64,000 bases of DNA, taken from Okamejei kenojei (lineage: Eukaryota). Every line of letters starts with the position of its first letter. Position 1 is the first letter of the stretch. Below the pieces are notes generated by a model. It did not search any database and was not told where the DNA came from. It saw only the letters and a list, made by a program, of their open reading frames with translations. The position numbers and the translations under genes were made by a program. Where the stretch lies: contig CM069160.1 in NCBI GenBank assembly GCA_035221665.1, positions 30,566,001 to 30,630,000 of the forward strand. The letters run 5' to 3'. This document shows positions 12,201 through 64,000 of the stretch, one piece after another.

Positions 12201-15200
12201 CAAATCATTAATATATATTGGTAAATAGCTGGGGTACCAGCACTGAGCCTTGCGGTACCCCATTAGTCACTGCCTGCCATTCTGAAAAGGACCCATTTAC
12301 TCCTACACTTTGCTTCCTGTCTGTCCAGCCAGTTCTCTATCCACATCAAATTGAGGCAGTGCAACGTAGGATCACGAGATTGATTCCCTGGGATGGCGGG
12401 ACTGTTCTACGAGGAAAGATTGAAAAGACAAGGCTTGTATGCACTAGAGTTTAAGAAGGATGAGGGGTGATCTTATAGAAACATATGCAATTATAAAAGG
12501 ACTGGACAAGCTAGATGCAGGAAATATGTTCCCAATTAAACCAGCATCTGTAGTTCCTTCCTACTCTTTCCTTTGAATGGACAGCACACAAACTATTTAG
12601 CTTTTCATTGCAGCTCGGTATTCATAACAATAAGACTTGTTAGGACTCTAGGGTGCCAGCTATAGGTGAGGTTGAGTAGGCTGGGTCTCTATTCCATGGA
12701 ACATAGGAGTATGAGGGGAGATCTCACAGAGGTGTACAAAATCATGAGAGGAATAGATCTGCTAGATGCACAGTCTTTTACCCAATCTTTAAGAAAGAAC
12801 TGCCGATAGCTGGAAAAATCGAAGGTAGACAAAAATGCTGGAGAAACTCAGCAGGTGAGGCAGCATCTATGGAGCGAAGGAATAGGTGACGTTTCGGGTC
12901 GAGACCCTTCTTCAGACTCTTCTTCTAAGTGTGTCTTCCTTCGAGTCTCTTACCCAGAGTAGGGGAATCGAGGACCAGAGGGCATAGGTTCAAGGTGAAG
13001 GGGAAACGATAGAATAGGAATCTGAGGGGTAACTTTTTCACACAGAGGGTGGTGGGTGTATGGAACAAGTTGCCGGAGGAGGTAGTTGAGGCTGGGACTA
13101 TCCAATCGTTTAAGAAACAGTTGGACAGGTTTGGAGGGATATGGACCAAGCGCAGGCAGGTGGGACTAATGTTGCTGGGACATTGTTGGCTGGTGTGGGC
13201 AAGTTGGGACGAAGGGCCTGTTGCCACACAGTTATCACTCCGTGACTCAACGAACAATAAGCGAAACTAAAATCGTCCAATTCCTCGTCCAATTTGGAAA
13301 AGGGTTTGTCTTTGCAGGAGTGAGTGGCTGCTGTTCCGATTTTTAACTCGGGCACGGAGGAGCGGGCCCGGGGAGGTGGGGACGACTCAACAGGTGAGTG
13401 AGACCCCTGGACATCTCTCAGCCGCTGGGACAAAGCGATCGCTCCACCTTCTTTGCAACTTAGCGGAGACTCGCTAGAAGGTGGAAGGGGACACCCCGCT
13501 GTCCCCCCCCCCCCCCCCCCCCCCCCCGGGATGAGGCTGGGACCGAGACCAGGGTTGGTTTCCCGGGGCCGGAGTGGCCAGTTTGCCCGCTCGGGAGAGC
13601 GTGGGGGCCGGTGCGGGTCAGGGAAGGTCTAGGCGGCGGCCGGGAGAGTTGGTCCGTTCACTGGGATCGTTATACAGCGTGTAAACAGGCCCTTCGGCCC
13701 AACGTGCCCCATCTACACTAGTCCCACCTGCCTGCGCTTGGTCCACATCTCTCCAAACATGTCCTATCCATCTACCTGTATTTCAACGTTGGGATAGTCC
13801 CAGCCTCAACTACCTCCTCCAGCAGCTTGTTCCACACACCCAACACCATCTGTGTGGAAAAGACATGTTCGTTCACAGCGCTCTCGGCCGGGAATGTAGC
13901 TGCGAGTCCGACCATGCAAAGAAAATATTAAATCCCCTTCTCATTCTCACAGACCGGCACAAACTGTTGTAGTAACTCTCAGCGGGACAGGCAGGCAGCA
14001 TCTTTGGAGAGAAGGAGTGGGGGTCGTTTCTAGTCGAGACACTTCTTCAGACTCTGCATTTTCAAGATCCATCAGTCTGAAGAAATGCCTCGACCCGAAA
14101 TGTCACCCATTCCTTCTCTCCAGGGACGCTGCCTGGAGAGAAGGAATTCAGCCCCTGGGGCCAACACCGCCATTCAATATGACTTTGGCTGCTGGCTGCA
14201 TGGCTGCTTTTTCCCCATATTTAGAAGGTTGGGAGGGGATCTTATTGAAACATATAAGATTGTTAAGGGTCTGAAGAAGGGTCTGGACCCGAAACGTCAC
14301 CTGTTCCTTCGCTCCATAGATGCTGCCTCACCCGCTGAGTTTCTCCAGCATTTTTATCTTCTTTCAATTTTTCCAGCATCTGCAGCTCTTAAACTTTAAG
14401 GGTTTGGACACGCTAGAGGCAGGACACATGTTCCCGATTGTTGGGCGAGTCCCGAATCATGGGCCACAGTTTAAGAATAAGGGGTAAGACATTTAGAACG
14501 GAGATGAGGAAACACTTTTTCGCACAGAGAGTTGTGAGTCAGTGGAATTATTTGCCTCAGAGGGCGGTGGAGGCAGGTTCTCTGGATACTTTCAAGAGAG
14601 AGCTAGATCGGGCTCTTAAAGATAGAAGAATAGAAACATAGAAAATACGTGCAGGAGTAAGCCATTCGGCCCTTCGAGACTGCACCACCATTCAATATGA
14701 TCATGGCTGATCGTTCAACTCCGTATCCTGTACCTGTCTTTGCTCCATACCCCCGATCCCTTTAGCCACAAGGGCCACATCGAACTCCCTCTTCAATATA
14801 GCCAATGAACTGGCCTCAACTACCTTCTCTGTCAGAGAATTCCAGAGACTCACCACTCTCTGTGTGAAATGTTTTTCTCTCATCTCGGTCCTAAAAAGAC
14901 TTCCCCTTATCCTTAAACTGTGAGCCCTTGTTCTGGAGTTCCTCAACATCGGGAACAATCTTCCTGCATCTAGCCTGTCCAACCCCTTAAGAATTTTGTA
15001 AGTTTCTATAAGATCCCCCCTCAATCTTCTAAAGTCTAGTGGCTACAAGCCGAGTCTATCCAGTCTTTCCTCATATGAAAGTCCTGACATCCCAGGAATC
15101 AGTCTGGTGAACCTTCTCTGTACCCCCTCAATGGCAAGAATGTATTTCCTCAGATTTGGAGACCAAAACTGTACGCAATACTCCACGTGTGGTCTCACCA

Positions 15201-16640
15201 AAACCCTGTACAACTGCAGTAGAAACTCCCTGCTCCTATACTTAAAACCTTTTGCTATGAATGCCAACATACCATTCGCTTTCTTCACGGCCTGCTGCAC
15301 CTGCATGCCTACTTTCAATGACCACTACCATAACACCCAGGTCTCGTTACATCTCCCCTTTTCCTAATTGGCCACCATTCAGATAACAGCCTACCTTCCT
15401 AGTTTTGCCACCGAAGTGGATAACCTCACATTTATCCACATTATACTGCATCTGCCATGCATTTGCCCACTCGCCCAGCCTATCCAAGTCACCTTGCAGC
15501 CTCCTAGCATCCTCCTCACACCTAAACACTGCCCCCAGCATCATGTCACCTGCAAACCTGGAGATGTTGCATTCAATTCCCTCGTCCAAATCATTAATAT
15601 ATATTGTAAATAGCTGGGGTACCAGCACTGAGCCTTGCGGTACCCCATTAGTCACTGCCTGCCATTCTGAAAAGGACCCATTTACTCCTACACTTTGCTT
15701 CCTGTCTGCCAGCCAGTTCTCTATCCACATCAAATTGAGGCAGTGCAACGTAGGATCACGAGATTGATCCCTGGGATGGCGGGACTGTTCTACGAGGAAA
15801 GATTGAAAAGACAAGGCTTGTATGCACTAGAGTTTAGAAGGATGAGGGGTGATCTTATAGAAACATATGCAATTATAAAAGGACTGGACAAGCTAGATGC
15901 AGGAAATATGTTCCCAATTAAACCAGCATCTGTAGTTCCTTCCTACTCTTTCCTTTGAATGGACAGCACACAAACTATTTAGCTTTTCATTGCAGCTCGG
16001 TATTCATAACAATAAGACTTGTTAGGACTCTAGGGTGCCAGCTATAGGGTGAGGTTGAGTAGGCTGGGTCTCTATTCCATGGAACATAGGAGTATGAGGG
16101 GAGATCTCACAGAGGTGTACAAAATCATGAGAGGAATAGATCTGCTAGATGCACAGTCTTTTACCCAATCTTTAAGAAAGAACTGCCGATGCTGGAAAAA
16201 TCGAAGGTAGACAAAAATGCTGGAGAAACTCAGCAGGTGAGGCAGCATCTATGGAGCGAAGGAATAGGTGACGTTTCGGGTCGAGACCCTTCTTCAGACT
16301 CTTCTTCTAAGTGTGTCTTCCTTCGAGTCTCTTACCCAGAGTAGGGGAATCGAGGACCAGAGGGCATAGGTTCAAGGTGAAGGGGAAACGATAGAATAGG
16401 AATCTGAGGGGTAACTTTTTCACACAGAGGGTGGTGGGTGTATGGAACAAGTTGCCGGAGGAGGTAGTTGAGGCTGGGACTATCCAATCGTTTAAGAAAC
16501 AGTTGGACAGGTTTGGAGGGATATGGACCAAGCGCAGGCAGGTGGGACTAATGTTGCTGGGACATTGTTGGCTGGTGTGGGCAAGTTGGGACGAAGGGCC
16601 TGTTGCCACACAGTTATCACTCCGTGACTCAACGAACAAT

Positions 16641-16775
16641 AAGCGAAACTAAAATCGTCCAATTCCTCGTCCAATTTGGAAAAGGGTTTGTCTTTGCAGG
16701 AGTGAGTGGCTGCTGTTCCGATTTTTAACTCGGGCACGGAGGAGCGGGCCCGGGGAGGTGGGGACGACTCAACAG
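16641..16775 (+). promoter_or_regulatory. Putative promoter and non-coding 5'UTR exon of gene 1 (copy 4; the other copies' donors are at 6094, 10004 and 13393)
   Basis: Non-repeat island with IRF-element-like AAGCGAAACT, two CCAAT motifs and a GC-rich, ATG-free segment ending in the strong donor CAG|gtgagt. Confidence 0.5.
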
Positions 16776-18709
16776 GTGAGTGAGACCCCTGGACATCTCT
16801 CAGCCGCTGGGACAAAGCGATCGCTCACCTTCTTTGCAACTTAGCGGAGACTCGCTAGAAGGTGGAAGGGGGACACCCCGCTGTCCCCCCCCCCCCCCCC
16901 CCCCCCCGGGATGAGGCTGGGACCGAGACCAGGGTTGGTTTCCCGGGGCCGGAGTGGCCAGTTTGCCGCTCGGGAGAGCGTGGGGGCCGTGCGGGTCAGG
17001 GAAGGTCTAGGCGGCGGCCGGGAGAGTTGGTCCGTTCACTGGGATCGTTATACAGCGTGTAAACAGGCCCTTCGGCCCAACGTGCCCCATCTACACTAGT
17101 CCCACCTGCCTGCGCTTGGTCCACATCTCTCCAAACATGTCCTATCCATCTACCTGTATTTCAACGTTGGGATAGTCCCAGCCTCAACTACCTCCTCCGG
17201 CAGCTTGTTCCACACACCCAACACTGTGTGGAAAAGACATGTTCGTTCACAGCGCTCTCGGCCGGGAATGTAGCTGCGAGTCCGACCATGCAAAGAAAAT
17301 ATTAAATCCCCTTCTCATTCTCACAGACCGGCACAAACTGTTGTAGTAACTCTCAGCGGGACAGGCAGGCAGCATCTTTGGAGAGAAAGAGTGGGGGTCG
17401 TTTCTAGTCGAGACACTTCTTCAGACTCTGCATTTTCAAGATCCATCAGTCTGAAGAAATGCCTCGACCCGAAATGTCACCCATTCCTTCTCTCCAGGGA
17501 CGCTGCCTGTCCCGCTGTGTTACTCCAGCATTTTGTGTCTATCTTCGGTGTAAACCAGCATCTGCAGTTCCTTCCTACAATTAACTCAGTGTTTGGAGAG
17601 AGTTGAGAGATACAGTGTGGAAACAGGCCCTTCGGCCCATCGAGTCCACGGAGACCACTGATCACCATTCACACTAGTATTATGGTATCCCACTTACTTA
17701 TCCTCCACCTATACATAGAAACATAGAAAATAGGAGTAGGCCATTCGGCCCTTCGAGCCAGCACCAATATGATCATGGCTGATTATCCAAAATCGGTAGC
17801 CCATTCCTGCCTTCTCCCCATATCCCTTGATTCCTTTAGGCGCTGAGAGCTAAATCTAATTTTCTCTAAAAAACATCCAGTGAATTGGACTCCACTGGCC
17901 AGATTCACTGATCGATCCAATGACTTTATCCAGAGGCTGGCAGGAGAACAGGACTCGGTTGTGCTGGACAATCTCCGTGCATTTAAGAGAAATCTAGAAA
18001 AAGCCCAAGGGCGAGAGAGCAGGAGGAAGGTTTTGACTGGGGTGGGATGAATTAAATCAGGCGAGCAGAGACTTGTAGCAGACACACTGTCTGTGTGGTT
18101 GGAGCCTGAGGCGTATCTCTACGAATATTGTTTTGTCAAAACAAGAAACTGCAGATGCTGTTTAACACACAAAAAAAACACAGAGTGTTGGAGTAAAATA
18201 GAAACATAGAAAATAGGAGTAGGCCATTCAGCCCCTGGGGCCAGCACCGCCATTCAATATGATTTTGGCTGCTGGCTGCATGGCTGCTTTTTCCCCATAT
18301 TTAGAAGGTTGGGAGGGGATCTTATTGAAACATATAAGATTGTTAAGGGTCTGAAGAAGGGTCTCGACCCGAAACGTCACCTGTTCCTTCGCTCCATAGA
18401 TGCTGCCTCACCCGCTGAGTTTCTCCAGCATTTTTGTCTTCTTTCAATTTTTCCAGCATCTGCAGCTCTTAAACTTTAAGGGTTTGGACACGCTAGAGGC
18501 AGGAAACATGTTCCCGATTGTTGGGGGAGTCCCGAACCAGGGGCCACAGTTTAAGAATAAGGGGTAAGACATTTAGAACGGAGATGAGGAAACACTTTTT
18601 CGCACAGAGAGTTGTGAGTCAGTGGAATTCTTTGCCTCAGAGGGCGGTGGAGGCACGTTCTCTGGATACTTTCAAGAGAGATCTAGATCGGGCTCTTAAA
18701 GATAGAAGA

Positions 18710-26316: not shown

Positions 26317-27290
26317 TTATAGTGCTCCCAACACCGCATGTCCAAAGCTTGTCATAGTGTGAACAGGTTTGTTGTAGAACTTTGAAAAAGTTTCTTCTTT
26401 ACTCCACCCTGCGATTTTTAAAATATGCTCGAGAGGTACGTCCCGCCCCTTCGCCGCGGACGTAGCTGCCGCCCTGGTGGAGTGAGATTTGAAGACATCA
26501 GTGTCTACTCCCGCTAAAACCAACACCTGTTTCAACCATTTTGAGATAGTTTGAACTGAAGCTTTTGTGTGTGGCTTTTTGTGCGTAAGCAGTAATGTCT
26601 TTTTCGTTTCCTCGAAAAGTGTCCGTAACTTTAATATATTGGTTCAAATGTCTAACCACACACAAAGCAGGCTCAATATGAAAAGCTTGAAAGGTTACCT
26701 TTGTTCCAGATCTCCCTGGTCTACTTTGTTTGATCAGATCGTAAACATAGAATACAACGTTATCTGTAGTCACATGCATACAGTCTAAACGCAACATTTG
26801 TAAAGTTTGCACTCTTTGGGCTGAGACCAGTGACATTAACATGACCAATTTCAATGTTAACCTATCCAATGGCAACCCTTCAATTGGAGTCCATTCTCTA
26901 AGTAGAGCAAGTACAATGCTCACATCCCAAATCTCTGTATATCTAGGTTTTGGCGGATTCATGTGAAAAATTCCTTTCATGAATCGTGATATTAATGGAT
27001 GCGACCCAATTGATTTCTCACCAGTCATAAGTCCTAAATAGGACGACAAGGCACTGCGTGCAGTGTTAATGGCACTGTAACTTAAATGTTGCCCAAAGTG
27101 CAAATTGGCAAGGAATTCCAAAAACATGAGTAACATTCACAGAATCATCAGAAATATTTGACTGTGTGCAAAATTCTTCCCATTTCTTAATATGTGTCAT
27201 ATATTGTTTCTGTGTGCTATCTCGCCATGATGCGCCAATAACTGTCAAAGTTTGGTCCGACAATCCCAGTTCCTGTAGTGGTCTGGTCAA
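26317..27290 (-). CDS. DIRS tyrosine recombinase (frameshifted into three ORF pieces)
   Basis: SAQRVQTL, HSTRAAATS and AGWSKEETFSKFY motifs, plus an N-terminal integrase SAM-like region (STQKQYMTHIKKWEEFC). Confidence 0.9.
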
Positions 27291-29200
27291 AACCTGCAGA
27301 TTAACAAATTCATATATGCATATAATGGGTAACCTTCATTTGTTACTGGATTAGTCAAGATATCACTACAGTTAGGAATTTGGATATACGGTTCTTTAAT
27401 CATATTCAGCATAACTGGGAACCAAGGTTGAGTTGGCCAATTTGGCACTACCAACAATCCGGAAGCTGAATCTTGCTCTATTTTCTTCAAGCATCTCTGG
27501 ATCAGAGCAAATGGTGGAAAAGCATAAAAGAACATTTTTCCCCAGTGTAATGAAAATGCATCTACTGCAACTGCGTCCGGATCGTGTTCCCAAGACACAT
27601 AATGAGGCAATTGATGATTAAGCCTGGATGCAAACAAATCAATTTCTGGCAACCCAAATCGTCTAACAATATTCTTAAATATTGCTGGCTTAAGCATCCA
27701 TTCCGTATTATCTTTAAAAAATCCTGGACCTTTCATCTGCTACCACATTGTCTTTACCTGGAATATAGCTTGCTGAAATCCATATCTGCCGACCAATACA
27801 CCATTGCCATATCTCATTGACCAGACAATCACATGATACTGATCTAACTCCCCCCATGTGATTAATGTAAACCACAGCGTTTTATTGTCTAATTGTATTA
27901 ACACATGCAGACCTTGTTTTAGCACAACAATATGCTTTAAGCCCATAAAAGGCCCCCAATAATTCCAAATAGTTAATACCATACTCTTGGAGAAACACTT
28001 GTTCTTCAGTTTTCCATCTACCTCCACAACTGGAGGATAAATCTGTGGCCCCCCATCCGAGAGCACTAGCATCGTTTGTAAAACCATTTCAGGCTGTTTA
28101 ATCATGATCTTCTTAGCAGCTTGTGGGACATTTTCAACCCACCATTGCAATTCCAATACTGCTTTCCTTGTTAATTGCATAGGCCTGTCAAAGTGACCTG
28201 CCTTATCTTTAAGAGCCCTTACTTTGTCCCTTTGAAGATTTTGATAATGTAATGGCCCAAATTCCACTGCCGGAAATGCTGCCACCAGTGTACCAATGAC
28301 TTTTGCCACTTCTCGGATGGAGGGATAAGGTTTGTGAATGAGGTAATTACACATTTGCAAAATATCATTTGTCTTCTTTGCTGGCAAAGTAACTAACATA
28401 GTCACTGAGTTAATTACAAACCCCAGAAAATCAATTGATGAACTGGCTGCAGCTGGGATTTAATTGGATGAATTAAGAATCCAAGCTCTTTAAACAAAGC
28501 TTTAGTAACTGAAATTGAGTGCTCAGCTGACTCTTGACTATCGTTAATAATCAGAATATCATCCAGATAAGCCATTACAATGTGTTTCTGTGCTCTTAAT
28601 TGAGCTAAAACTGGTTTCAACAGTTTTTGTAAAGAGTCTAGGAGCCGAACTTAATCCATTTGGTAAAGCTTTGAACTGCCATAATTGCCCCTGCCAATAA
28701 AACTTTAAGTATCTCCGAAAAAGATGATGAATTGCTAAGAATAATAGGCGTCTTTCAAATCAATCTTAGCCATATAAGAACCTGCTGAAATCAAATATTT
28801 TGCAGTATTGAATGTCTCCATCTTAAAATGTTTGTATTCTACAAACTTATTTAGATCTGTAAGGTCTAGAATAATTCTACAACCACCATCTTTCTTATCT
28901 CTGCGAAAATATATTAGAGACAAATTGATGCTTATGTTCACAAGTTTTTTTTCAATTACCCCTTTTTCGGATAATTTGTCAATTTCCACATTAATCTCCA
29001 TTCTTTCTTCTGGAGAAAACACATAAGCATAAGCAGGTTTATTCTGTACAGGAGGATTGACCCTTCTTTAAAAATAATAATAGCTCCTGAAACTGCTTGT
29101 AATATAAATCGATCAGAAGTAATATTAAGCCAGGCATTATAAAATTTTTGCAATCTCCCTCCAACTGGAGATTCATCCACAGTTTCTTTAAGGATAGAAG
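27287..29200 (-). CDS. DIRS pol: reverse transcriptase, RNase H and Dam-like methyltransferase domain (frameshifted)
   Basis: PVGGRLQKFYNAW, GGCRIILDL..LNKFV, KIDLKDAYY, AYLDDILI, IDLFASRLNHQL, FYAFPPF. Confidence 0.9.
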
Positions 29201-29203
29201 TCT

Positions 29204-30423
29204 TTAATACCTCTCCATAGGAGCGTGATGGTCTCCTCTTTCCCGAATGCAGGGAAGCAGTGGCCTGTGCAGCACGATAATACTTTCGTGACAAATTTCT
29301 GCCTCTATAACGAAAATCAAAACCCCTTCGGGCCGAAAACCCTTTTCTTTGTCCAGAGACAAAAGGCTTAATAGTGCTAAAATATTTAGCTTCTTCATCC
29401 AACTGTTTCAGTTGTTTCGGCAGATTTTCTCCAAACAAATACCCAGGAGCTTGAACTCCACTTTCTTGACACAGGCTTGCATATCTAGGGTGAAATATGG
29501 GCCGAATCGCCATTTTCCTCATGCAATTTGATCTCATAAAAACGAATTGCACAATAAGCCCAAAGTATCTTTTTGAATCTTGTCCATTTCCAGATTCTCC
29601 ATTTGCCTGCCAAATGCCGTGATGGCAGCCGAAAATAATTTTAGCACCTTTTGAAATTTCACTTCTTGGGCTCTCATACTTGGAGTCATAGACGCCCATA
29701 CCATCGGATTCACCGTAGGCACTTCCAATGAGGCACAATTGCCTGGTGCTTTATATAATTCTGATAATTCATTCATCACAGTATTATGAAGCTGGTGAGA
29801 TACCATATAATTTATATTGGCAGCTAGGCTTTCTTCCATAGCCTCACCACTTCCTTCGGGTATAGCAAAAAACTTGTGCTATCCCAGGCAGATCAAGCCT
29901 TTTCTTTTTACTTTGTGGCGTGCTTTCAAAAGCCATTTCAACTTCAGCAGGGTCTGCTTTCTGCAGCCCTAATTTCCATCGGGATATTATCCCATGAGAC
30001 TTCTTCCAGCCCAAATCGTGGGTCTGGAGTATCATATTCCCAACTTGGCCCACAGCCATATTCATCATAATCAAACCCCTCAGGGATTTTTTGGGATTCA
30101 TGTGGGTACTGTGACCCTTGTCTCATAATAGTTTGGAGAACTTTCTCCATATGCTCCATTTTTAGCCACATAGTTTTATTGTCTGGAGGTCTTTCAAAAT
30201 CAGAATCATCAGAAACCACGGGCCTCACAGTTTTCTTTTTGCATTTCTTAGGAGCATTTTCCTCCGTGGTTATAATTTCCGGAGAATCTGGAAATTCTAT
30301 ATCGGGTAAATTAGTGGCCAGCGGTATCGGAACCGGGTCCACTCTAGCTTCGCGTCCCGTATATTTACTTTCACCCCGGGAGGCTCTCTTCACCCGCGAA
30401 ACCTTCTTTCCCGATTTCTCCAT
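29204..30423 (-). CDS. DIRS gag-like ORF1 (frameshifted)
   Basis: Position upstream of pol; PGNC..LEVPTVNP..W and YLFGENL segments typical of DIRS gag. Confidence 0.7.
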
Positions 30424-54280: not shown

Positions 54281-54780
54281 NNNNNNNNNNNNNNNNNNNN
54301 NNNNNNNNNNNNNNNNNNNNNNNNNNNNNNNNNNNNNNNNNNNNNNNNNNNNNNNNNNNNNNNNNNNNNNNNNNNNNNNNNNNNNNNNNNNNNNNNNNNN
54401 NNNNNNNNNNNNNNNNNNNNNNNNNNNNNNNNNNNNNNNNNNNNNNNNNNNNNNNNNNNNNNNNNNNNNNNNNNNNNNNNNNNNNNNNNNNNNNNNNNNN
54501 NNNNNNNNNNNNNNNNNNNNNNNNNNNNNNNNNNNNNNNNNNNNNNNNNNNNNNNNNNNNNNNNNNNNNNNNNNNNNNNNNNNNNNNNNNNNNNNNNNNN
54601 NNNNNNNNNNNNNNNNNNNNNNNNNNNNNNNNNNNNNNNNNNNNNNNNNNNNNNNNNNNNNNNNNNNNNNNNNNNNNNNNNNNNNNNNNNNNNNNNNNNN
54701 NNNNNNNNNNNNNNNNNNNNNNNNNNNNNNNNNNNNNNNNNNNNNNNNNNNNNNNNNNNNNNNNNNNNNNNNNNNNNNNN
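54281..54780. other. Assembly gap (500 N)
   Basis: N run. Confidence 1.
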
Positions 54781-57600
54781 CCGATTAGGAAAAAGGGGAA
54801 GATGCGCGAGGACCTGGGTGTTCATGGTACACCAGTCATTGAAATTAGGCCTGCAGGTGCAGCAGGCAGGTGAAAAAAAGCGAATGGTATGAGTAGCTTT
54901 CATAGCAAAAGGATTTGACGTACAGGAGCGGGGAGGTTACTACTTCAGTTGTACAGGGTCTTGGTGAGACCACACCGGAGTATTGCGTGCAGTTTTGGTC
55001 TCCAAATCTGAGGAAGGACGCTTATTGCCAAAGAGGGAGTGCAGAGAAGGTTCACCAGACTGATTCCTGGGGATGTAAGGGACTGTCTTATGAAGAAAGA
55101 CTCGGAATGGACTCGGGTTTATACTCTCTGGGAATTTAGGAGATTAAGCAGGAGATCTTATAGGAAACTTACAAAATCTTAAGGGGTTGGACAGGCTAGA
55201 TGCAGGGAAGAATGTTTTCCGTTTTGGGAAAAGTCCTGGGGTCAAGGGGTCCAGCTTAGATAAGGGGGAAATCCTTTAAGACTGAGATGAGTGAAAGGAA
55301 CTTTTCTTCCACACAGAGAGTGGTGAGTCTCTGGAACTCTCTTTGTCCACCAGAGGGTAGTTGAGGGCCAGTTCATTGGCTATATTTAAAGGAGTTGAGT
55401 TGGATGTGGCCCTTGTGGCTAAGGCGGATCCAGGAGGGTATGGAGAGAAGGCAGGTACGGGATACTGAGTTGGATTGATCGCCATGATCATATTGAATGG
55501 CGGTGCAGGCTCGAAGGGCTGGAATGGCCTACTCCTGCACCTAATTTCTATGTTTCTATGTTTTCTATGGCTGATCATCAAAATCAGTATCCTGTAACTG
55601 CATTCTCTCCATACCCCAGATCCCTTTAGGCCACAAAGGGGGCCACACTAACTCCCTCTTAAACATATAAGCCAAATTAACTGGGCCTCAACTACCTTCT
55701 GTGGCAGGAGAAATTCCACAGATTCACCACTCTGTGTGACAAATAATTTTCTCATCTCGGGTTCCTAAAAGACTTTCCCCCTTATCCAATGAACTGGCCT
55801 CAACTAACCCTTTCTGTGGCAAAGAATTCCCACAAAGTTTCCACCACTCTCTGTGTTGGAAAAAATGATTTTTTCTCATCTCGGTCCTATAAAGACTTTC
55901 CCCCCTTATCCTTAAACTGTGGGACCCCTCGTTCTGGACTTCCCCATATCGGGGAACCATCTTCCTGCATCTTGCCTGTCCAAACCACTCTTAAGAATTT
56001 TGTAAAGTTTTCTATTGAAGATCCCCCCTCAATCTTTCTAAAATTCTAGTGAGTACAAGCCGAAGGTTCTTATCCGGGTCTTTCTTGAAAAGTTCCTGCT
56101 ATCCCAGGAAATCAGTCTGGTGTACATTTCTCTGTAACTCCCTCTATTGGCAATAATGTCTTTTCCTCAGATTAGGGGACCAAAACTGTACGGGGGGGGG
56201 GGCAATATTCCAGGCGTGTGGCCTCACCAAGGGGACCGTGTACAACTGCAGTGTAGATACCTCCTGCTCTTGTACCTCAAAATCCCTTTTGCTATTGAAT
56301 TGCTAACATTTACCATTCGCTTTCCTCTCTAACCTGCCTGCACCTAACATGTCTTACTTGCTATGACTGGGTGTTTACCATGACACCCAGGTCTCGTTGC
56401 ATCTCCTCTTTTCCCCTAATCGGGCGCCAACCCTTTCAGTATAAGTCTACTTTTCTGTTTTTTGCCACCAAAGTGGTTAAACCTCACATTTCTACCACAT
56501 TATACTGCATTCTGCCACTGCATTTTTGCCCACTCAACCCAACAAATTCCCAAGTCACCCCCCCCCCCATCATGCAGCCTCCCTAGCATCCTTCCTCACA
56601 GGCTTAACATTGCCCCCCAGCTTCGGCGTTCAAATCCGCCAAATGGGTGATTTTGCATTCTCAATTCCCTCTTCCAGTTTATTAATATATATGTTTCTGT
56701 AAATAGCTGGGGCCCCAGCACTGAGGCCTTGCCTGGTACCCCCACTAGTCACTGCCTGCCATTCTGAAAAATGGACCCGTTTTACTCCTTACCTTTTGCT
56801 TGCCTGTTTGCAAAAGCAAGTTCTTTATATCCCCACATCAAGACTGAACCCCCAACTACTGGGTTACTTTACGTTTGCATACTAATCTTCTTATGTATGA
56901 CCTTGTCGAAAGCCTTCCGAAAAAGTCCAGATATAAAAAACACCCATCCACTGGTTCTCTTATCCCCTTACTAGTTACTATCCTTTGAAGAATTCTATAA
57001 GATTCGTCCAGACATGATTTACCTTTTCGTAAATCCATGTTGGGGACTTTGGTCTAATGATGTTCACCACTTTCCAAATGTTTACTGCTATTCCATGTTG
57101 CTTAATAACTGACTTCTAGGCATTTCCCCCACTACCAATGTTAAGTGACTAAACTGGTCTGTAGTTTCCCCGTTTTTCTCCTCTCCCTCCCTTTTTAAAA
57201 AGTGGAGGGTTACATTAGCTCACCCTCCTATCCTCAGGAAACAACAGGGTAATCTAAAAGAGTTTTGGACAAATTATCACTAATGCATCCACTATTTCTT
57301 GGGGCTATACTTCCTTAGTTTACTCTGGGATGCAGCCTCTCTGGCCCTGGGGGGGGGATTTATCGGCCTTTAAATCCATTCAAATTTTACCTAAAATACA
57401 CCACTTTCCCGGATACCTGGATTTTCCTCAGTTCCCCCATCTCATTTTGACCCCCGGTCCCCCTCTATTTCTGGGGCAGATTATTTATGTCTTCCCTTAG
57501 TGAAGACAGGAACCAAAGTTGTTATTCAAATGGTCTGCCATGTTCCTTGTTTCCCCACGATCAAGGGTTCACCAGTTTTCTGGACTGCAAGGGACCTACA
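54781..57600. mobile_element. Tail-to-tail CR1 LINE fragments (+ 54781-55565, - about 55566-57600), indel-rich
   Basis: Colinear with 18710-20510 but with many indels. Confidence 0.85.
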
Positions 57601-58684
57601 GGGGAAAAGCGTGCAAACAGGGTACTGATGAGGATGATCAGCTCACGAGCACATTGAATGGCAGTGCTGGATCAAAGGGCTGATGGCCCTACTCCTGCAT
57701 ATTGTCTATTGTTTAAATCTCCCCTGGGACTCTCAATGGCAGCACATTCCCATCTCAGATACGGGGCTCAAAAGATGCTTCACAATGCACCAAATGCGGT
57801 CTGACCAGTGCCTTGTAAAGCCTCAGCTTTTGCATCGCTGCTTTGATTGTGATGATCCTGCAATGATTTGGAGGTTCCAGAATTTACTTTAATGGTGGAA
57901 GTTTGCCTGGTGTGGCATGTTAATTAGGTTGATTAAAGTTAAATGGTAGGGAAACCAGGAACTGGTTTGCAAAAATACACCAGTGAGCTGGAGTAATTGG
58001 AGAAGGGTCCAGACCAGAAATGTCACCTATCCATTTCCTCCAGAGCCGCTGGCCTGAACCTGCTGCGTCACTCCAGCCCTTGTGTATTTGTGGAGACCAA
58101 GGTGCAGGACCTGTTCCCGATCCGTAGCTCCAGTTGCACTTGCCCTATATGATGCAATAGCAATTCGCCCTCCCCTCCTGTGAGGTGAAAAGTTCAGGGA
58201 GTGTTCTGTGTCGCAACATTGGATCGAAGTGTGTTGGAAGCTGGCAGGAAATGATTTTAACAGTAAAAAATCTATTGAAAGTTGCCATTTGTAAAGCTTT
58301 AATCGCGAATAATGTGAAATGTAGGATGAAATCTTCAGTGAAGCTGCTCACTGCTAGCCCGGGACTTTGTGACGTCATCAGTGAAAGCTGGTTGTTTTAA
58401 TTCAAAGTCTTTTGATGTTTTTAAACTTCTTTACTTATCAGTAATTAGTCGAGAAATAAAGCATAAAATGTTCAGTGAAGGTGACGGCCACGAGGGGAAA
58501 CATTCAATAAAATATGTAAAAATGTAAATCTTTACAGCGAGGATGTTTTGCGAAGAAGTAAAGACCCCCACATATAAAACACACATATACTCATGCACAA
58601 GATCAGACTTTTAATAAGTAAATGATGATTAGGACTTGTTGATCTTCTAAAGTGATGGACCTAAAGTTTTCGATTGTATTACAG

Positions 58685-58788
58685 TTCATTGTTGGTGAGG
58701 ATGGATCCTGTGGTGTAATCTACGAAACAATTTGTGGTGAGGGTCCGCCCATATGCTACCATATTGGGACCACTGTTCTAGATTATTG
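58685..58788 (+). CDS. CRAT: Carnitine O-acetyltransferase-like, internal exon (catalytic-His region)
   Basis: acag|FIVGEDGSCGVIYETICGEGPPI..ATIL-DH-VLDY|gt aligns from memory to CRAT FIVAEDGSCGLVYEHAAAEGPPIVTLLDYVIEY. Confidence 0.85.
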
Positions 58789-60372
58789 GTTAAGATCTTC
58801 TTCTTGTAGAGTCCGCACACAAGATTTAGAAGTTGTTCAGCCAGGCATTCTTGGCATCTGCTGCAATGAGAGGGGATCTTTTTTAAAACATACAAGACTA
58901 TTAAGGGTTTGGACACGCTAGAGGCAGGAAACATGTTCCCGATGTAGAGAGTCCAAGAACCAGGGGCCACAGTTTTTTTTAGAATAAGGGGAGAAAGCCA
59001 TTAGAACGGAGATGAGGAAAACACTTTTTCACACAGATAGTTGAGAGTCTGTAGAATTCTCTGTCTCATAGGGCGGTGGAGGCTGGTCTCTGGATACTTT
59101 CAAGAGAGAGCTAGACAGGCTCTTGAAGATAGGCAGAGTCGGGGGATATGGGGGAGAGGCTGGAAAAAACGGGGGTACTGATTATGGATGATCAGCCGTG
59201 GATCACAGTGAAAGGCGGTTGCTGGCTTGAAGGGCCAAATGGCCTACTCCTGCACCCATTGTCTATTGTCTACCACTGCGCGGACACAGTGGGGCTGAAG
59301 GGCCTGTTTCCGCGCTGTATCTCTAAACTAAATTGAAGTCACCTTTTCCATCTTGCATGCCCCGGGTATTAATTGTTAATTCTTTCAAAAAAAAAAAAAG
59401 GTGCACTGCAGTGAAGGTTTAAATATGGTTTTATTAGATTAAGATTAGATTAGATTTTATTAATTGTCATTCGAACCTCAGAGAGGCTCAAACGAAACTC
59501 CGTTTTCTACAGCCATACACAAAACAATTCCTACAAAACATACAAACAATTCAATTTACAGAAAAACATCCATCACAGTGAATTTCCTCTTCTGTGATGG
59601 AAGGCAAAGTCTTTTCTCTCCCCCGCACCATTTCTCTCCCGATGTCGAAGCCCCAGGCGGGCGTTGTTAAGTCCCACGGTCATTGAAGGCCGCGCCGGGC
59701 GATGTACGGCCCGCTCCAGGTTCCAAAAGGTCACAAAGTTGGAGCCCCCGGCGGGCACTGGAAATGTCCTGTGGCCATTTAAAGCCGCGCCAGGCGATGT
59801 ACGGCCCCGCTCTGGGTTGTTCCAACCCCGCGACACGGGCAGGAGAGAAGTTGCGTTGCGGGCGCTCCGGAAATGCGGGTCTCTCACCCAGACCCGTGAG
59901 CTCCCGATATCCGACAGTCCCCGGTCTGCAGCTGCAGGGCTGGAGCTGCGGAGTCGGCGCGCAGCGGCGTTCGCCACCACTCCCCATTGCTCGAGGCCAG
60001 CCAGCCCCACGACGGTGAGTCCGCAGATCCGCAGGCTCCGTGACTGGAGCCCCCCAGGTCGTCCCAGTCGGAGGCGCTCCACGGTGCTAGGCCCCAACGG
60101 ACAATGGAGACCCGACAGGGAAAAAAAGTCGGGTCTCCCGTGCAGGGAAGAAGATTTTAAAAGTTTTCCCCCTCCCCCCCAGTTAGAAGGAACAATTACA
60201 AAAAAAACACAATACAACTACATTTAACTAGACAACAAAAGACGGGGGACAGGCTGTGTAGGGGTTCATTGCAAACGCGCGTCGCGCCAACGCACTTCTG
60301 CCTTTAGATGGACACTTATTAAGTATCATCCCTGGATTCAACATCTTTACTTCTTACTTTCGCCTTTTGTAG

Positions 60373-60495
60373 CAAGGAAGGACCCGGATACAGTTCGCGC
60401 TCCAATGATTCCGCTGCCATTACCCAAAAACTGTACTTTTACATCACTCCAGAGATAAAGTGGGATATTGAGCACGCAAAACGGAATCTGGACAT
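60373..60495 (+). CDS. CRAT: Carnitine O-acetyltransferase-like, internal exon
   Basis: Indel-corrected PDTVRAPMIPLPLPKKLYFYITPEIKWDIEHAKRNLDI vs CRAT [38 protein letters not shown]; tag| and |gtgagt. Confidence 0.88.
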
Positions 60496-61519
60496 GTGAG
60501 TATCATTGTGGCTACTTGTGTGAATCAGCTCGACTAGATACAGGTCTCTAACAAAGGCCCAGTATTTAACTCCTGAAGTATATTCAGTCATGGGGAGGTT
60601 GCCAACTGTCCCTTATTAGCGGGACATTGGGGGCTAAATTGGTTTTGTCCCAGCAAGGGACCGCCCTTGTCCCGTATTTGACTGCACCTGTCCAAAACTG
60701 GGCTTTGTGTGCAGTCCAGCACCCGGGCCAACTCTTCATTCACCCAGCCACGGCCGTGATTGTGCAGGAGCCCGCGGAGCGGAGGGGGCGGTGAGGATGG
60801 CGGGGGATTAGCGCGGGCGGGACGGGGGGGGTACCCAGGCCGCGGTGAGGCTTACGGGGCGCGACGGAGATTGGGGCGGGTATTAGAAGCGGGGAGGACG
60901 GCGAGGCTGGGAGGGGGGCGGCGGGGGGGCGGAGAGGGGGACGGGGTGGGGGGGGAGGCATGCGCGGGGGGGAGGGGCAGGGGGGCAGATGGGGGGGGGG
61001 GGGCGGGGGCGGAGGGGGCTGGCGCAGTGGGCGGGGCGCGCGGCGGTATTGGTCCCGTTAGGGGTGGGGGGTGGATTGGCGGGGCGTCCCCCCCCCGACC
61101 CCTGGCGGAGGGGGGCGGAGGGGGGGCGCTGGGCGGGGCGGCGGAGTGCCATGGGCGTCGTGTCTTCTGGGTGTCGTTCGTTTTCGTTTTTCTGTCATTT
61201 CTCTTTCTCTCTGTCTGTCTTTTTTTTTTTGTGTTTATTCGGTTTTGTTGTGGTCCATTGCTCTCTTCTCTTTCTCTCTTCATATTTTTAACTTCATTTC
61301 TCTTCAACTCTTTTTTTTTTTTCTCTTTTTTTTTTTATTTCTTTTTCACCAATTGGTCTGAATTTGGTCCCGTATTTTGACCTTTTGTCCCATATTTGGG
61401 AGTGGAAAGTTGGCAACCCTAATGAGTAGTTCGGCAGAATACGAAAAATAGAAAGGTAAAGCACAGGAAGAGGCCCTTCGGCCCACATTGTCTGTACCGA
61501 ACATGATGTCTGGACCAAG

Positions 61520-61812
61520 GGGCGGCCCAGTGGCGCAACTGTAGAATGCAGCGCCTCACAGCGGCAGAGACCCGGGTTCAAATCAGGACTATGGGGTGCT
61601 GTCTGTGAGGAGTTTGTACGTTCTCCCTGTGACCTGCGGTGGGGTTTCTCCGGGTCCTCTACGGTTTTCCTCCCACACTCCAAAGACGTGCAGGTGTGTT
61701 GGGTAATTGGCTCTCTGGTATAATTATTCAATTGTCCCGGGAGTGTGTTGTTGTAGATTAGTTTCGTGCACAGGGTGGTGGGGACTCTGTGGGCTGAAGG
61801 GCCTGTTTCTGC
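61520..61812 (+). mobile_element. tRNA-derived SINE (HE1-like); further copies or fragments at about 21050-21250, 21410-21910, 22020-22300, 36015-36325, 36940-37170, 45315-45560, 52115-52410
   Basis: A-box-like GTGGCGCA.. and B-box GGGTTCAAATC, conserved body, GAAGGGCCTGTTTC CR1-like tail. Confidence 0.8.
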
Positions 61813-61967
61813 CTGAAGGGTCTGTCCCACTTTCACGACCTAATTCACGACCTTTTTACTCAAGGACATTTTTCATCAGGCTAGAAAAAACACCGTGACC
61901 TACTTGATGCCAACGCAGTACTATGACTAGCATCATGACCTGCTACGATTACCTACGACATCTTACG

Positions 61968-62002
<35 letters not shown>

Positions 62003-62122
62003 AGGCCTCGTGGCGACCATGTTGCGAGTATGAGTCAAGGGCAAAATCGGCAGAGGTCGTGAACGTGGGACAGGCCCATTATATCTCTAAACTCTAACAT
62101 TGAAACAATGTCTCTGTTCCAG

Positions 62123-62246
62123 TTTAGTCAACGGACTGGACATCAGCTGCTTCACGTACAGAAACTTTGGAAAAAGACTTCCCCAAAAAACATGGCATAG
62201 CCCGGACTGTTTGTACAGATGGCCCTTCAGTTGTCCCTTACTTCAG
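62123..62246 (+). CDS. CRAT: Carnitine O-acetyltransferase-like, internal exon
   Basis: Indel-corrected LVN.LDISCFTYRNFGKDFPKKHG.SPD.FVQMALQL.YFR vs CRAT [37 protein letters not shown]; ccag| and |gtatgt. Confidence 0.85.
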
Positions 62247-63730
62247 GTATGTACTCTGAGAAGGGTTTCCAACTCCCTTCACTCCAAATAAGGGACAAAT
62301 GGTCAAAATAAGGGACAAAATTCCCACACGGCAATTCGTTGACCGACTCGGCCGTGGCTGGGTGGATGATGGGTTGGCCCGGGTGCTGGACTGCACACAA
62401 AGCCCAGCCGGGGGCCAGCTGAGGGGGTTTGGCCTGCGCGCAAGTCCAGCGCCTCGCCAGACTCATGAAACGATGATTGGCCGTGGAGAAGGAGGGATGG
62501 TGGGGGTTTGTCCGCGGTAAGCGAAGGTTCGGGACAGCTGGCCGGGCTGCCGACCGACGGGGGGACACGGGTGAGGCGCTGCTGCTGCTGCACTCCATGG
62601 GCTGCACCACGTCGGGACGGGTGTGAGGCGGGGGCCGGACGAGATGCTCCAACCCGGACAGTCCCCTCGATCCGAGTAGTGAGTAGCAGCCAAATATGCG
62701 ACAAGGGAGGTCTCGTAATGGACAATCCAATTTAGCCCAATATTACGGGATGTCCAGGCTTTGTTTTATAATATTTGTCCCCTTCAGTTTGTAAATTCTT
62801 TATTATCCAGACTTAACAAACCTTTCCAAGGTTTCACACCAATCTGTGAAAATAAAGTTCTACGCAGCACAGTTTTAAAATGAATGGTCCTAAATAGGTT
62901 TGTAGATCAACGGTATTGGCTCTTTGGATCCGTGTATGGTTTTTGCTGCCTACGGCCTGATCCATAATCCATGTTCACGTTTCCCACACCACTGCCAGCT
63001 CGTGCATGCGGGCAGCCACGTGGAGTTTTAAATTTAACTTATGATTCGGAGCCTCCAGTACTCATCTTGATGGTCTGGTATGTATATATTCTTGGTATAG
63101 AGGGAGTGCAGCGTAGTTCACAAGGTTAATTCCCAGGATGGCGGAACTGTCATAAGCTGAGAGAATGGAGCGGTGGGCTTGTGCACTCTGGAGTTTAGAA
63201 GGATGAGAGGGCATCTTATTGAAACATAGAAGATCATTAAGAGTTTTTGGACACGCTGGAGGCAGGGAACATGTTCCAATGTTGGGGGAGTCCAGAACCA
63301 GGGGCCAGGTTAGTTTAAGAATAAGGGGATATCCATTTATAACGGAGATTTAGGAAACCCTTTTTCACAGAGAGTTGTGGGTTCTATGAAATTCTCTGCC
63401 TCGGAGGGCGGTGGAGGCGGTTCTCTGGATACTTTCGAGAGAGAGCTAGATGGGGCTCTTAAAGATAGTGGAGTCGGGGGATATGGGGAGAAGGCAGGAA
63501 CGGGGCGGTACTGATTGGGGATGATCAGCCATGATCACATTGAATGGTGGTGCTGGCTTGAAGGGCCGAATGGCCTACTCCTGCACTATTGCCTATTGTG
63601 TACAAAATTAAATACTTTTGAGTTGTGTACAAATTAAAGTACTTTGAGTGAAGCTGGGATCACTGCCTTATGGCCCTTTTATTGTCATTTTCCCCTATTA
63701 TATTATTTTTCTCTTTGTGACCACTTTTAG

Positions 63731-63865
63731 AATGTATAAGGAGCTGTGTTCGCTTGCGAGACTGTTTCACGAGGATCTTTCATTTGGGGCGCACAGATGT
63801 GGTACGATCCTCGTCCACAGATTCCTTGGAGTTTGTGGAAAGCATGGACAATGAAAAAAATTGAG
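63731..63865 (+). CDS. CRAT: Carnitine O-acetyltransferase-like, internal exon
   Basis: Indel-corrected MYKELCSACETVS.RIFHLGRTDVVRSSSTDSLEFVESMDNEKIE vs CRAT IYGQACATYESASLRMFHLGRTDTIRSASMDSLTFVKAMDD. Confidence 0.88.
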
Positions 63866-64000
63866 GTTAATTCTCCCTTGGAAGTTCACAAAAAATAGAA
63901 CTCTCTCCCACAACTAACTTTATGAGGATGTTGCCAGGATTCAAAGGTTGAGCTACAGGGAGAGGTTGAGCAGGCTGGGGACTCTATTCCTGGAGCGCAG

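What the first reader, a model, noticed from the sequence alone, without database searches (positions are those of the whole stretch)
58685..63865. CRAT-like gene that appears to lack the catalytic histidine (candidate pseudoenzyme)
Seen: four exons absent from the ORF track match carnitine O-acetyltransferase. The YEHAAAEG motif reads in frame as YETICGEG (codon ACA at 58727-58729), and the YES motif reads CET (63755-63763). Known, from memory of mouse CrAT structures: His343 is the catalytic base and Tyr452/Ser454 bind carnitine. Inference: a conserved-fold paralogue that is catalytically dead or has changed substrate. Caveat: this region is indel-rich, so compensating errors could hide a His codon.
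Basis: partly seen in the sequence, partly recalled or inferred. Interest (0 to 1): 0.7.

Follow-up and report, generated by a model that had tools for sequence, protein, structure and literature searches.

The report
Vertebrate CRAT paralogue lacking catalytic histidine
The flagged exons are an error-ridden second copy, likely an assembly artefact, of an intact skate gene (cratb) whose orthologues from sharks to birds mostly lack the catalytic histidine of carnitine acetyltransferase, so it is likely a long-conserved non-catalytic protein predicted to bind coenzyme A in mitochondria.

Summary
The motifs are there as read (YETICGEG, CET), but the locus and one residue are wrong. Window 55567 onward is an indel-ridden partial duplicate of a gene 79-80 kb upstream, likely an assembly false duplication. 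A short-read contig matches the upstream copy exactly and lacks the extra base at 58727. The true motif is YEQSCGEG: His343 is Gln, not Thr. The upstream gene is intact (13 coding exons checked, 621 codons, 97% identical to annotated skate cratb). Its orthologues form one clade across jawed vertebrates (100/100). In 24 lineages His343 is Gln 20, His 2, Ala 1, Pro 1; Tyr452 is Tyr in 0; Ser554 is Gly in 24. The CoA-binding lysines, the fold (TM 0.97 to CRAT) and a mitochondrial-type N-terminus are kept; PTS1 is absent. cratb lies on the MHC chromosome and CRAT on a paralogous one, which suggests genome-duplication ohnologues. His reappeared three times in teleosts, zebrafish included, without Tyr452 or Ser554. 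Best reading: a conserved mitochondrial pseudoenzyme that likely binds CoA or short acyl-CoA. No activity or binding was tested. Ten literature searches found no report of the missing His.

The parts
54281..54780 (.). 500-N stretch just before the duplicated segment, probably a scaffold join (masking cannot be told apart)
55567..64000 (+). Start of a ~17 kb direct duplicate (runs on to window-equivalent ~72750) of C30:30542400 onward; 87-94% identical in its long blocks, differences mostly indels; likely unpolished false duplication
58685..58788 (+). Error-laden copy of cratb exon 8 (active-site loop). Window reads YETICGEG; the intact copy at C30:30545300-30545400 reads YEQSCGEG (His343 to Gln)
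   Evidence: 4 extra and 1 missing base, 0 substitutions
60378..60495 (+). Copy of cratb exon 9, 1 base missing (frameshift)
62123..62246 (+). Copy of cratb exon 10 (Lys419, Lys423 and Asp430 equivalents, CoA side); 3 extra, 2 missing bases, 3 substitutions
63731..63865 (+). Copy of cratb exon 11 with CET in place of YES (Tyr452 to Cys, Ser454 to Thr); 1 extra, 2 missing bases, 0 substitutions

Best explanation
The window holds a frameshifted 3' duplicate, likely an assembly artefact, of the intact gene cratb 79-80 kb upstream, which encodes a CRAT paralogue with His343 replaced by Gln, Tyr452 by Cys and Ser554 by Gly and is likely a catalytically dead, predicted mitochondrial protein that would still bind CoA or short acyl-CoA. 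Shown: the intact reading frame, the substitutions, one clade across jawed vertebrates, a basic acid-free N-terminus, no PTS1. Predicted: the CRAT fold. Inferred: origin in a vertebrate whole-genome duplication (cratb on the MHC chromosome, CRAT on a paralogous one); loss of general-base catalysis and transition-state stabilisation early on its stem; retention under purifying selection for over 400 million years as a ligand-binding pseudoenzyme. It would act as a matrix sensor or buffer of the acetyl-CoA/CoA pool and pass that state to a partner, by analogy with CPT1C and malonyl-CoA. Odds: window copy is not a separate functional gene 0.95; cratb has no or negligible carnitine acetyltransferase activity 0.8; it works through CoA/acyl-CoA binding 0.5.
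For: Artefact: the segment begins about 800 bp after a 500-N gap. Block 1 has 213 insertion and 39 deletion events against 76 substitutions in 4.9 kb, and 128 of 149 one-base insertions extend a run. Exons 2-7 have no second copy in C30:30560000-30680000, and 6 of 7 duplicated exons carry indels. The X1 contig equals the upstream copy and differs from the window by 9 gaps and 0 substitutions. Intact gene: 13 exons with AG/GT ends, stop-free, 621 aa, 97.3-97.4% identical to RefSeq skate cratb P0219 and P0222. Relatives of 631 aa lie on ~2.2 kb Logan contigs, which implies spliced transcripts. Substitutions, 24 cratb lineages vs 12 CRAT rows: His343 Q20/H2/A1/P1 vs H12; Tyr452 0 of 24 vs 12 of 12; Ser554 G24 vs S12. 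His343 is the general base and Lys419/Lys423 bind the CoA 3'-phosphate (PMC11852590, section 5 read). Lys423 is kept in 24 of 24, Lys419 in 23 of 24, Ser456 in 24 of 24. Position 343 tolerates Q, A, P, S and H, unlike a catalytic base. Clade support 100/100. Model pLDDT 85.8, TM 0.97 and rmsd 1.7 A to human CRAT. N-termini of 12 cratb proteins have 2-7 R/K and 0-1 D/E. PTS1-like ends in 0 of 164 cratb-set vs 23 of 53 CRAT-set rows. Synteny.
Against: No activity, binding or localisation data exist here. His is present in 23 of 162 cratb rows (cypriniforms including zebrafish, Paramormyrops, Aldrovandia), which could mean the site still matters. Much of the carnitine pocket is kept (Trp102 23/24, Tyr107 23/24, Thr465 22/24, Arg518 21/24, Glu347 23/24), as residual or altered catalysis would also predict. 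One turtle row has Tyr452 (P0199). The CoA site is not fully kept: Asp430 is Asn in 12 of 24 and Glu453 is Asp in 12 of 24; two turtles lose Lys419; bird orthologues have lost the Lys419/Lys423 segment. The roles of Ser554 (oxyanion hole) and Tyr452/Ser454 (carnitine carboxylate) are recalled, not read in any paper here; the only support from calls is the title of PDB 2h3w, an S554A/M564G ternary complex. The model was built on an alignment that includes active CRATs. Run X1 need not be the assembled individual.
Confidence: 0.55

Rival explanations
1. Cratb is a non-catalytic scaffold or regulatory subunit whose job is a protein contact (for example with Crat or a matrix dehydrogenase complex), and ligand binding is incidental.
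For: 26 clade-diagnostic columns are fixed in cratb and differ from CRAT, several far in sequence from the active-site motifs (e.g. LQTN to WKTD near 241-244). Birds keep the gene after losing the CoA-lysine segment.
Against: Lys423, Ser456 and Thr553 are invariant in 24 of 24 lineages and Lys419 in 23 of 24. No partner is known, and none was tested.
Confidence: 0.17
2. Cratb is still an enzyme with a changed reaction or acceptor, for example a slow acyl-CoA thioesterase or a transferase for a more nucleophilic acceptor (amine or thiol) that needs no His base, possibly using Cys452.
For: The fold and both tunnels are predicted intact. Gly554 is invariant (156 of 156 rows with a residue), which looks like a selected change. 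Cys452 is in 19 of 24 lineages. Glu347, Arg518, Trp102 and Tyr107 are largely kept.
Against: Cys452 is Ala, Ser or Asn in 5 of 24 lineages (squamates, turtle, gar, lungfish), so it is not an essential nucleophile. Position 343 drifts among Q, A, P, S and H, and 454 among T, S, I, M and V. No new invariant polar residue replaces His in the loop.
Confidence: 0.15
3. Cratb keeps weak carnitine acetyltransferase activity, restored in lineages that regained His (zebrafish and relatives).
For: His is present in three separate teleost lineages: 4 changes on the tree, single origin rejected at p-AU 1e-5. The carnitine-pocket aromatics are kept.
Against: No His-bearing cratb row has Tyr452 or Ser554 (0 of 25). 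Gln to His is a single third-position change, so neutral drift is enough (genetic code).
Confidence: 0.1
4. The window copy is a real recent segmental duplication that has decayed into a pseudogene.
For: It carries 55-108 substitutions per 4-5 kb block besides indels. The region holds other tandem copies of the last exon.
Against: Indels outnumber substitutions about 2-3 to 1, are biased to insertion and to homopolymer runs, and transitions are under half of substitutions. Three exons have indels and 0 substitutions. In run X1 the one listed contig over the exon has the upstream form. The neighbouring N-bounded segment is also a 97-99% inverted copy of nearby sequence.
Confidence: 0.08

Closest known systems
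Carnitine O-acetyltransferase CRAT (human 1nm8, mouse 1ndb/2h3p; Pfam PF00755)
   Same: Ungapped alignment over 584 residues, about 59-60% identity; predicted TM 0.97; CoA lysines, Glu347, Thr465, Arg518, Met564 kept; mitochondrial-type N-terminus.
   Different: His343 to Gln, Tyr452 to Cys, Ser454 to Thr, Ser554 to Gly; no PTS1; separate clade and chromosome (C30 vs C33, where the skate CRAT keeps His, YES and STS).
Annotated cratb / 'carnitine O-acetyltransferase-like' (zebrafish NP_001004594, skate XP_055521752)
   Same: This is the same gene: 97% identical to skate cratb, same clade. The lack of PTS1 in zebrafish Cratb is already noted (PMC8919083, one passage read).
   Different: Databases name it as an acetyltransferase. 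The loss of catalytic residues, its presence from sharks to birds and its likely origin before teleosts were not found in the searches made. Zebrafish, the best-studied member, happens to have His.
CPT1C, the proposed pseudoenzyme and malonyl-CoA sensor of the same family
   Same: Carnitine acyltransferase fold; minimal catalytic activity with retained acyl-CoA binding (PMC6927751, one passage read). It is the functional analogy used here.
   Different: CPT1C is an ER membrane protein of the CPT1 branch and, from memory, keeps its catalytic His. Cratb is a soluble CRAT-branch protein that has lost the catalytic residues themselves; no mammalian orthologue was seen.

Membership tests
Choline/carnitine acyltransferase family (PF00755) | Full-length Carn_acyltransf domain above the curated cut-off | tested here: met
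   P0219: 638.9 bits vs cut-off 22.3, profile 1-573 of 574
Choline/carnitine acyltransferase family (PF00755) | Two-domain fold | tested here: met
   Predicted only: pLDDT 85.8, TM 0.97, rmsd 1.7 A to 1nm8
Active CRAT (EC 2.3.1.7) | Catalytic His343 | tested here: not met
   Gln in the intact gene; His in 2 of 24 lineages
Active CRAT (EC 2.3.1.7) | Tyr452-Glu453-Ser454 carnitine motif (role recalled) | tested here: not met
   CET in skate; Tyr in 0 of 24 lineages, 1 of 149 rows with a residue
Active CRAT (EC 2.3.1.7) | Ser-Thr-Ser motif with Ser554 (oxyanion role recalled) | tested here: not met
   Gly in 156 of 156 cratb rows vs Ser in 52 of 52 CRAT rows with a residue
Active CRAT (EC 2.3.1.7) | CoA-phosphate lysines 419 and 423, and the Asp430-Glu453 pair | tested here: met
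   All four kept in skate; Lys423 24/24, Lys419 23/24, but Asp430 is Asn in 12/24 and Glu453 is Asp in 12/24
Active CRAT (EC 2.3.1.7) | Measured acetyl transfer between CoA and carnitine | not testable with these tools
   needs an enzyme assay
cratb orthology group | One clade with annotated cratb, roughly following the species tree | tested here: met
   100/100 for 21 jawed-vertebrate rows; 97% identity to skate cratb
MHC-paralogon ohnologue pair | Paralogues on MHC-paralogous chromosomes, split before sharks and bony fish | tested here: met
   15 of 15 MHC class I matches and a SKIV2L exon on C30; PBC matches on C30, C33, C10, C36 and one on C13; CRAT on C33. That PBX genes mark the four paralogons is recalled; only chromosome-level linkage was tested.
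Pseudoenzyme | Expressed, conserved, lacking catalytic residues | tested here: met
   tilapia cratb is expressed in liver (PMC11463132, passages read)
Pseudoenzyme | Shown inactive, with a non-catalytic function | not testable with these tools
   needs assays and genetics

The most novel reading that the evidence does not exclude
Non-mammalian vertebrates carry an unrecognised, roughly 500-million-year-old mitochondrial acetyl-CoA/CoA sensor built from a dead copy of CRAT. It arose in an early vertebrate genome duplication (the hagfish His-less gene would be its orthologue), sits on the MHC chromosome, was lost in mammals, and regained His three times in teleosts without regaining catalysis.
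Probability: 0.3. Interest if true: 0.8.

Novelty: new variant of a known kind. Interest (0 to 1): 0.62.

Why it matters
cratb is read as an active carnitine acetyltransferase in fish omics and as the 'b' partner of crata. The sequence says it is an ancient paralogue shared by sharks, bony fish, amphibians, reptiles and birds, with three active-site residues changed. If it is inactive, this family gains a pseudoenzyme defined by loss of catalytic residues, kept for over 400 million years, with an unknown mitochondrial job. The question is directly testable in zebrafish and medaka, and the three His regains give a natural experiment on whether a dead site can come back. The window locus itself matters only as a warning that this assembly region holds unpolished false duplicates.

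Tried and rejected
Thr at 343: rejected as a compensating-indel error. A hidden His codon: rejected, the codon is CAA. An ordinary pseudogene: rejected for the upstream gene. A teleost-specific 'b' duplicate: rejected by the tree. P0103 (Pteropus) looked like a mammalian cratb but is ordinary CRAT with an internally repeated block. No mammalian or crocodilian orthologue appeared (99, best 120 of 1362, best 120 of 1244 rows) or among the 10 of 150 representatives that I named; this is not proof of loss. Birds and a frog were missed by the word searches and found only. Expression in this species: no RNA holder was listed, and three runs guessed to be RNA did not cover the exon; this is no evidence either way. 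The first structure model (16 sequences) had pLDDT 48.5 and was discarded. Hagfish placement is unresolved: with cratb at 87/84; with CRAT rejected (p-AU 0.012); outside both not rejected (p-AU 0.194). The mixture-model tree finished only as the quick tree; searches used LG+G4. dN/dS was not computed because no orthologous coding DNA was on hand. No complex prediction was run because no specific partner is claimed. Two look-ups of earlier scan findings returned nothing. The primary structural papers on Ser554 and Tyr452 could not be read.
Full report
Observation. The letters are as reported. Codons from 58721 give YETICGEG with ACA at 58727-58729, and 63755-63763 gives CET. The first exon hits solved CRAT structures at E 7e-6, with Thr opposite the His of YEHAAAEG. 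A Pfam PF00755 search of the whole genome found 46 exon matches on six contigs, among them a full gene at C30:30528505-30557974, which ends about 8 kb before the window starts. The skate CRAT proper is on C33 and keeps YEH, YES and STS.

The window locus is a bad copy. Window 55567 to about 72750 aligns to C30:30542400 onward at an offset of about 79-80 kb for the exon-bearing blocks, at 87-94% identity in the long blocks. It starts about 800 bases after a 500-N stretch. The differences look like raw long-read error. Block 1 has 213 insertion events, 39 deletions and 76 substitutions in 4.9 kb, and 128 of 149 single-base insertions extend a run; blocks 2 and 3 give 75/42/55 and 149/71/108. Only exons 8-14 are duplicated; 6 of 7 carry indels, three of them with no substitution at all. 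The exon-8 region occurs full-length at 2 places in the genome (the other 38 matches are an ~80-base flanking repeat). A contig of run X1 (depth 17, guessed to be DNA) covers window 58603-58839 with 0 substitutions and 9 gaps, one being the base at 58727; run X4 also lacks that base. The same 232-base contig fits the upstream copy with 0 substitutions and 0 gaps. X1 need not be the assembled individual, so a real decayed duplicate is unlikely but not excluded. Window 3069-48530 is likewise largely a 97-99% inverted copy of C30:30456001-30488634.

The real gene is intact. Thirteen exons (C30:30528409-30554737) have AG acceptors and GT donors and give a stop-free frame of 621 residues. It is 97.4% and 97.3% identical to RefSeq cratb of two skates (P0219, P0222) and 57.7% to skate CRAT. 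The short first coding exon was not fixed. The active-site loop reads YEQSCGEG, exon 11 reads ACETVS and exon 13 reads LSTGQ. In mouse numbering His343 is Gln, Tyr452 is Cys, Ser454 is Thr and Ser554 is Gly. Identical motifs stand in the full-length skate proteins of the P0002 cluster, seven of them 631-aa proteins on 2.2-2.3 kb Logan contigs (P0002, P0223-P0228), which must be spliced transcripts since the gene spans 26 kb.

The change is ancient and shared. Three homologue searches gave 218 proteins; one SKIV2L-fused model (P0029) was left out and 217 were sorted by identity with the 18 site columns masked. The cratb set had 164 rows, two of them short fragments with the oyster-type motif that were misassigned. 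Without those two, His343 is Gln 132, His 23, Ala 4, Pro 3. Ser554 is Gly in 156 of 156 rows with a residue; Tyr452 is Tyr in 1 of 149. The CRAT set has His 53 of 53, Ser554 52 of 52 and Tyr452 51 of 53. These rows are redundant (isoforms, salmonids), so I also counted a hand-picked panel of 24 lineages against 12 CRATs: His343 Q20/H2/A1/P1, Tyr452 C19/A2/S2/N1, Ser554 G24; Lys423 24, Lys419 23, Ser456 24, Thr553 24, Trp102 23, Tyr107 23, Glu347 23, Thr465 22, Arg518 21; Asp430 is Asn in 12 and Glu453 is Asp in 12. Conservation is close to that of the enzyme: skate-bichir cratb 69% against skate-reedfish CRAT 73%.

Tree. With invertebrate outgroups, 21 jawed-vertebrate cratb rows form one clade (100/100) with sharks and rays branching first, beside a CRAT clade (98/97) (LG+G4, 32 rows; one search agrees). 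A search of 50% representatives, screened and named, added fast-evolving bird orthologues (YDPAVIDG; they group with turtle at 99), a low-quality frog model without the His exon, and a hagfish gene with Arg at 343 and Asn at 554. The hagfish joins cratb at 87/84; grouping it with CRAT is rejected (p-AU 0.012), placing it outside both is not (0.194). His-bearing cratb occurs in cypriniforms (zebrafish included), Paramormyrops and Aldrovandia. Parsimony gives 4 changes, read with the outgroup as one loss and three regains, and a single origin is rejected (p-AU 1e-5). None of them has Tyr452 or Ser554. No mammalian or crocodilian orthologue was seen, which the cut lists cannot prove.

Origin. All 15 MHC class I matches are on C30, as is a SKIV2L exon 81% identical to the SKIV2L part of a bichir model that fuses SKIV2L to cratb. 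PBC-domain matches lie on C30, C33, C10 and C36, with one on C13, and CRAT is on C33. From established knowledge (recalled), PBX1-4 mark the four MHC paralogons and human CRAT lies at 9q34. cratb and CRAT are therefore likely ohnologues, and the 'b' does not reflect the teleost duplication.

Mechanism. His343 is the general base, Lys419 and Lys423 bind the CoA 3'-phosphate, and Asp430 and Glu453 pair in the pantothenate site (PMC11852590, section 5 part 1 read). That Ser554 forms the oxyanion hole and Tyr452/Ser454 bind the carnitine carboxylate is recalled; PDB 2h3w is titled as an S554A/M564G ternary complex. Gln cannot act as a base. Losing the base, the oxyanion serine and a carnitine ligand together makes normal turnover unlikely (0.8). 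The fold is predicted intact: pLDDT 85.8 and pTM 0.88 on a 142-row alignment that includes CRATs, TM 0.97 to 1nm8. N-termini of 12 cratb proteins are basic and nearly acid-free, like CRAT's presequence. None of 164 rows ends in a PTS1-like tripeptide, as noted for zebrafish Cratb (PMC8919083, one passage). I commit to a mitochondrial pseudoenzyme that binds CoA or short acyl-CoA and acts as a sensor or buffer, by analogy with CPT1C (PMC6927751, one passage). Tilapia cratb is expressed in liver and rises under hypoxia (PMC11463132, passages); I did not check the tilapia sequence itself. Against this reading: the carnitine-pocket aromatics and Arg518 are largely kept, His recurs, and turtles and birds erode the CoA lysines. 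A scaffold (0.17), a changed chemistry (0.15) and residual activity (0.10) stay open. Binding, location and inactivity are all untested.

Novelty. The gene is annotated and named. Ten searches of the open library found no statement that it lacks the catalytic His. 'cratb' with 'carnitine' gave 4 papers (two read in passages, two seen as listings only); 'carnitine acetyltransferase' with 'pseudoenzyme' gave 0. Subscription journals, where family phylogenies and the structure papers appear, were not searchable, and no supplements were read, so a prior remark may exist. Verdict: the window locus is an artefact copy; the gene behind it is a new variant of a known kind, a candidate CRAT pseudoenzyme conserved across non-mammalian vertebrates. 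Interest 0.62.

Noticed in passing
window 3069-48530: Largely a 97-99% inverted copy of G000:C30:30456001-30488634, between N stretches, with internal tandem repeats at 9564-17509; likely a haplotig or false duplicate.
   Followed up: partly
G000:C30:30554522, 30557801 and 30562326 (L038, L039): The last cratb exon occurs three times in tandem just before the window: the second copy is 98% identical, the third has indels.
   Followed up: partly
L052:3259-3792 (-) and L034:720-1337 (+): A V-set Ig exon upstream and a PRY/SPRY exon downstream of cratb, butyrophilin- or TRIM-like. A sturgeon model (P0008) fuses a SPRY domain to cratb, which hints at a conserved neighbour.
   Followed up: partly
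window about 26500-30000 (-): A run of ORFs that resemble a DIRS-type retrotransposon by eye; not tested.
   Followed up: no
P0054-P0094 (teleost zgc:154046-like proteins): A second teleost CRAT clade keeps His and YES, but many members change Ser552 to Tyr or Phe and lack PTS1.
   Followed up: no
P0327 (Notolabrus celidotus): A divergent CRAT-like protein that keeps His but has lost the YES and STS motifs, a further possible change of function.
   Followed up: no
P0318, P0338, P0356, P0476 (birds): Bird cratb is very diverged (branch 1.37), rich in Gly, Pro, Ala and Arg, and often on short contigs, like other hard-to-find avian genes.
   Followed up: partly
P0138 (Epinephelus coioides): A cratb protein is labelled 'catalase' in its source.
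   Followed up: no
cratb positions 430 and 453: The Asp430-Glu453 pair becomes Asn-Asp in most teleosts, which looks like a coupled change.
   Followed up: no
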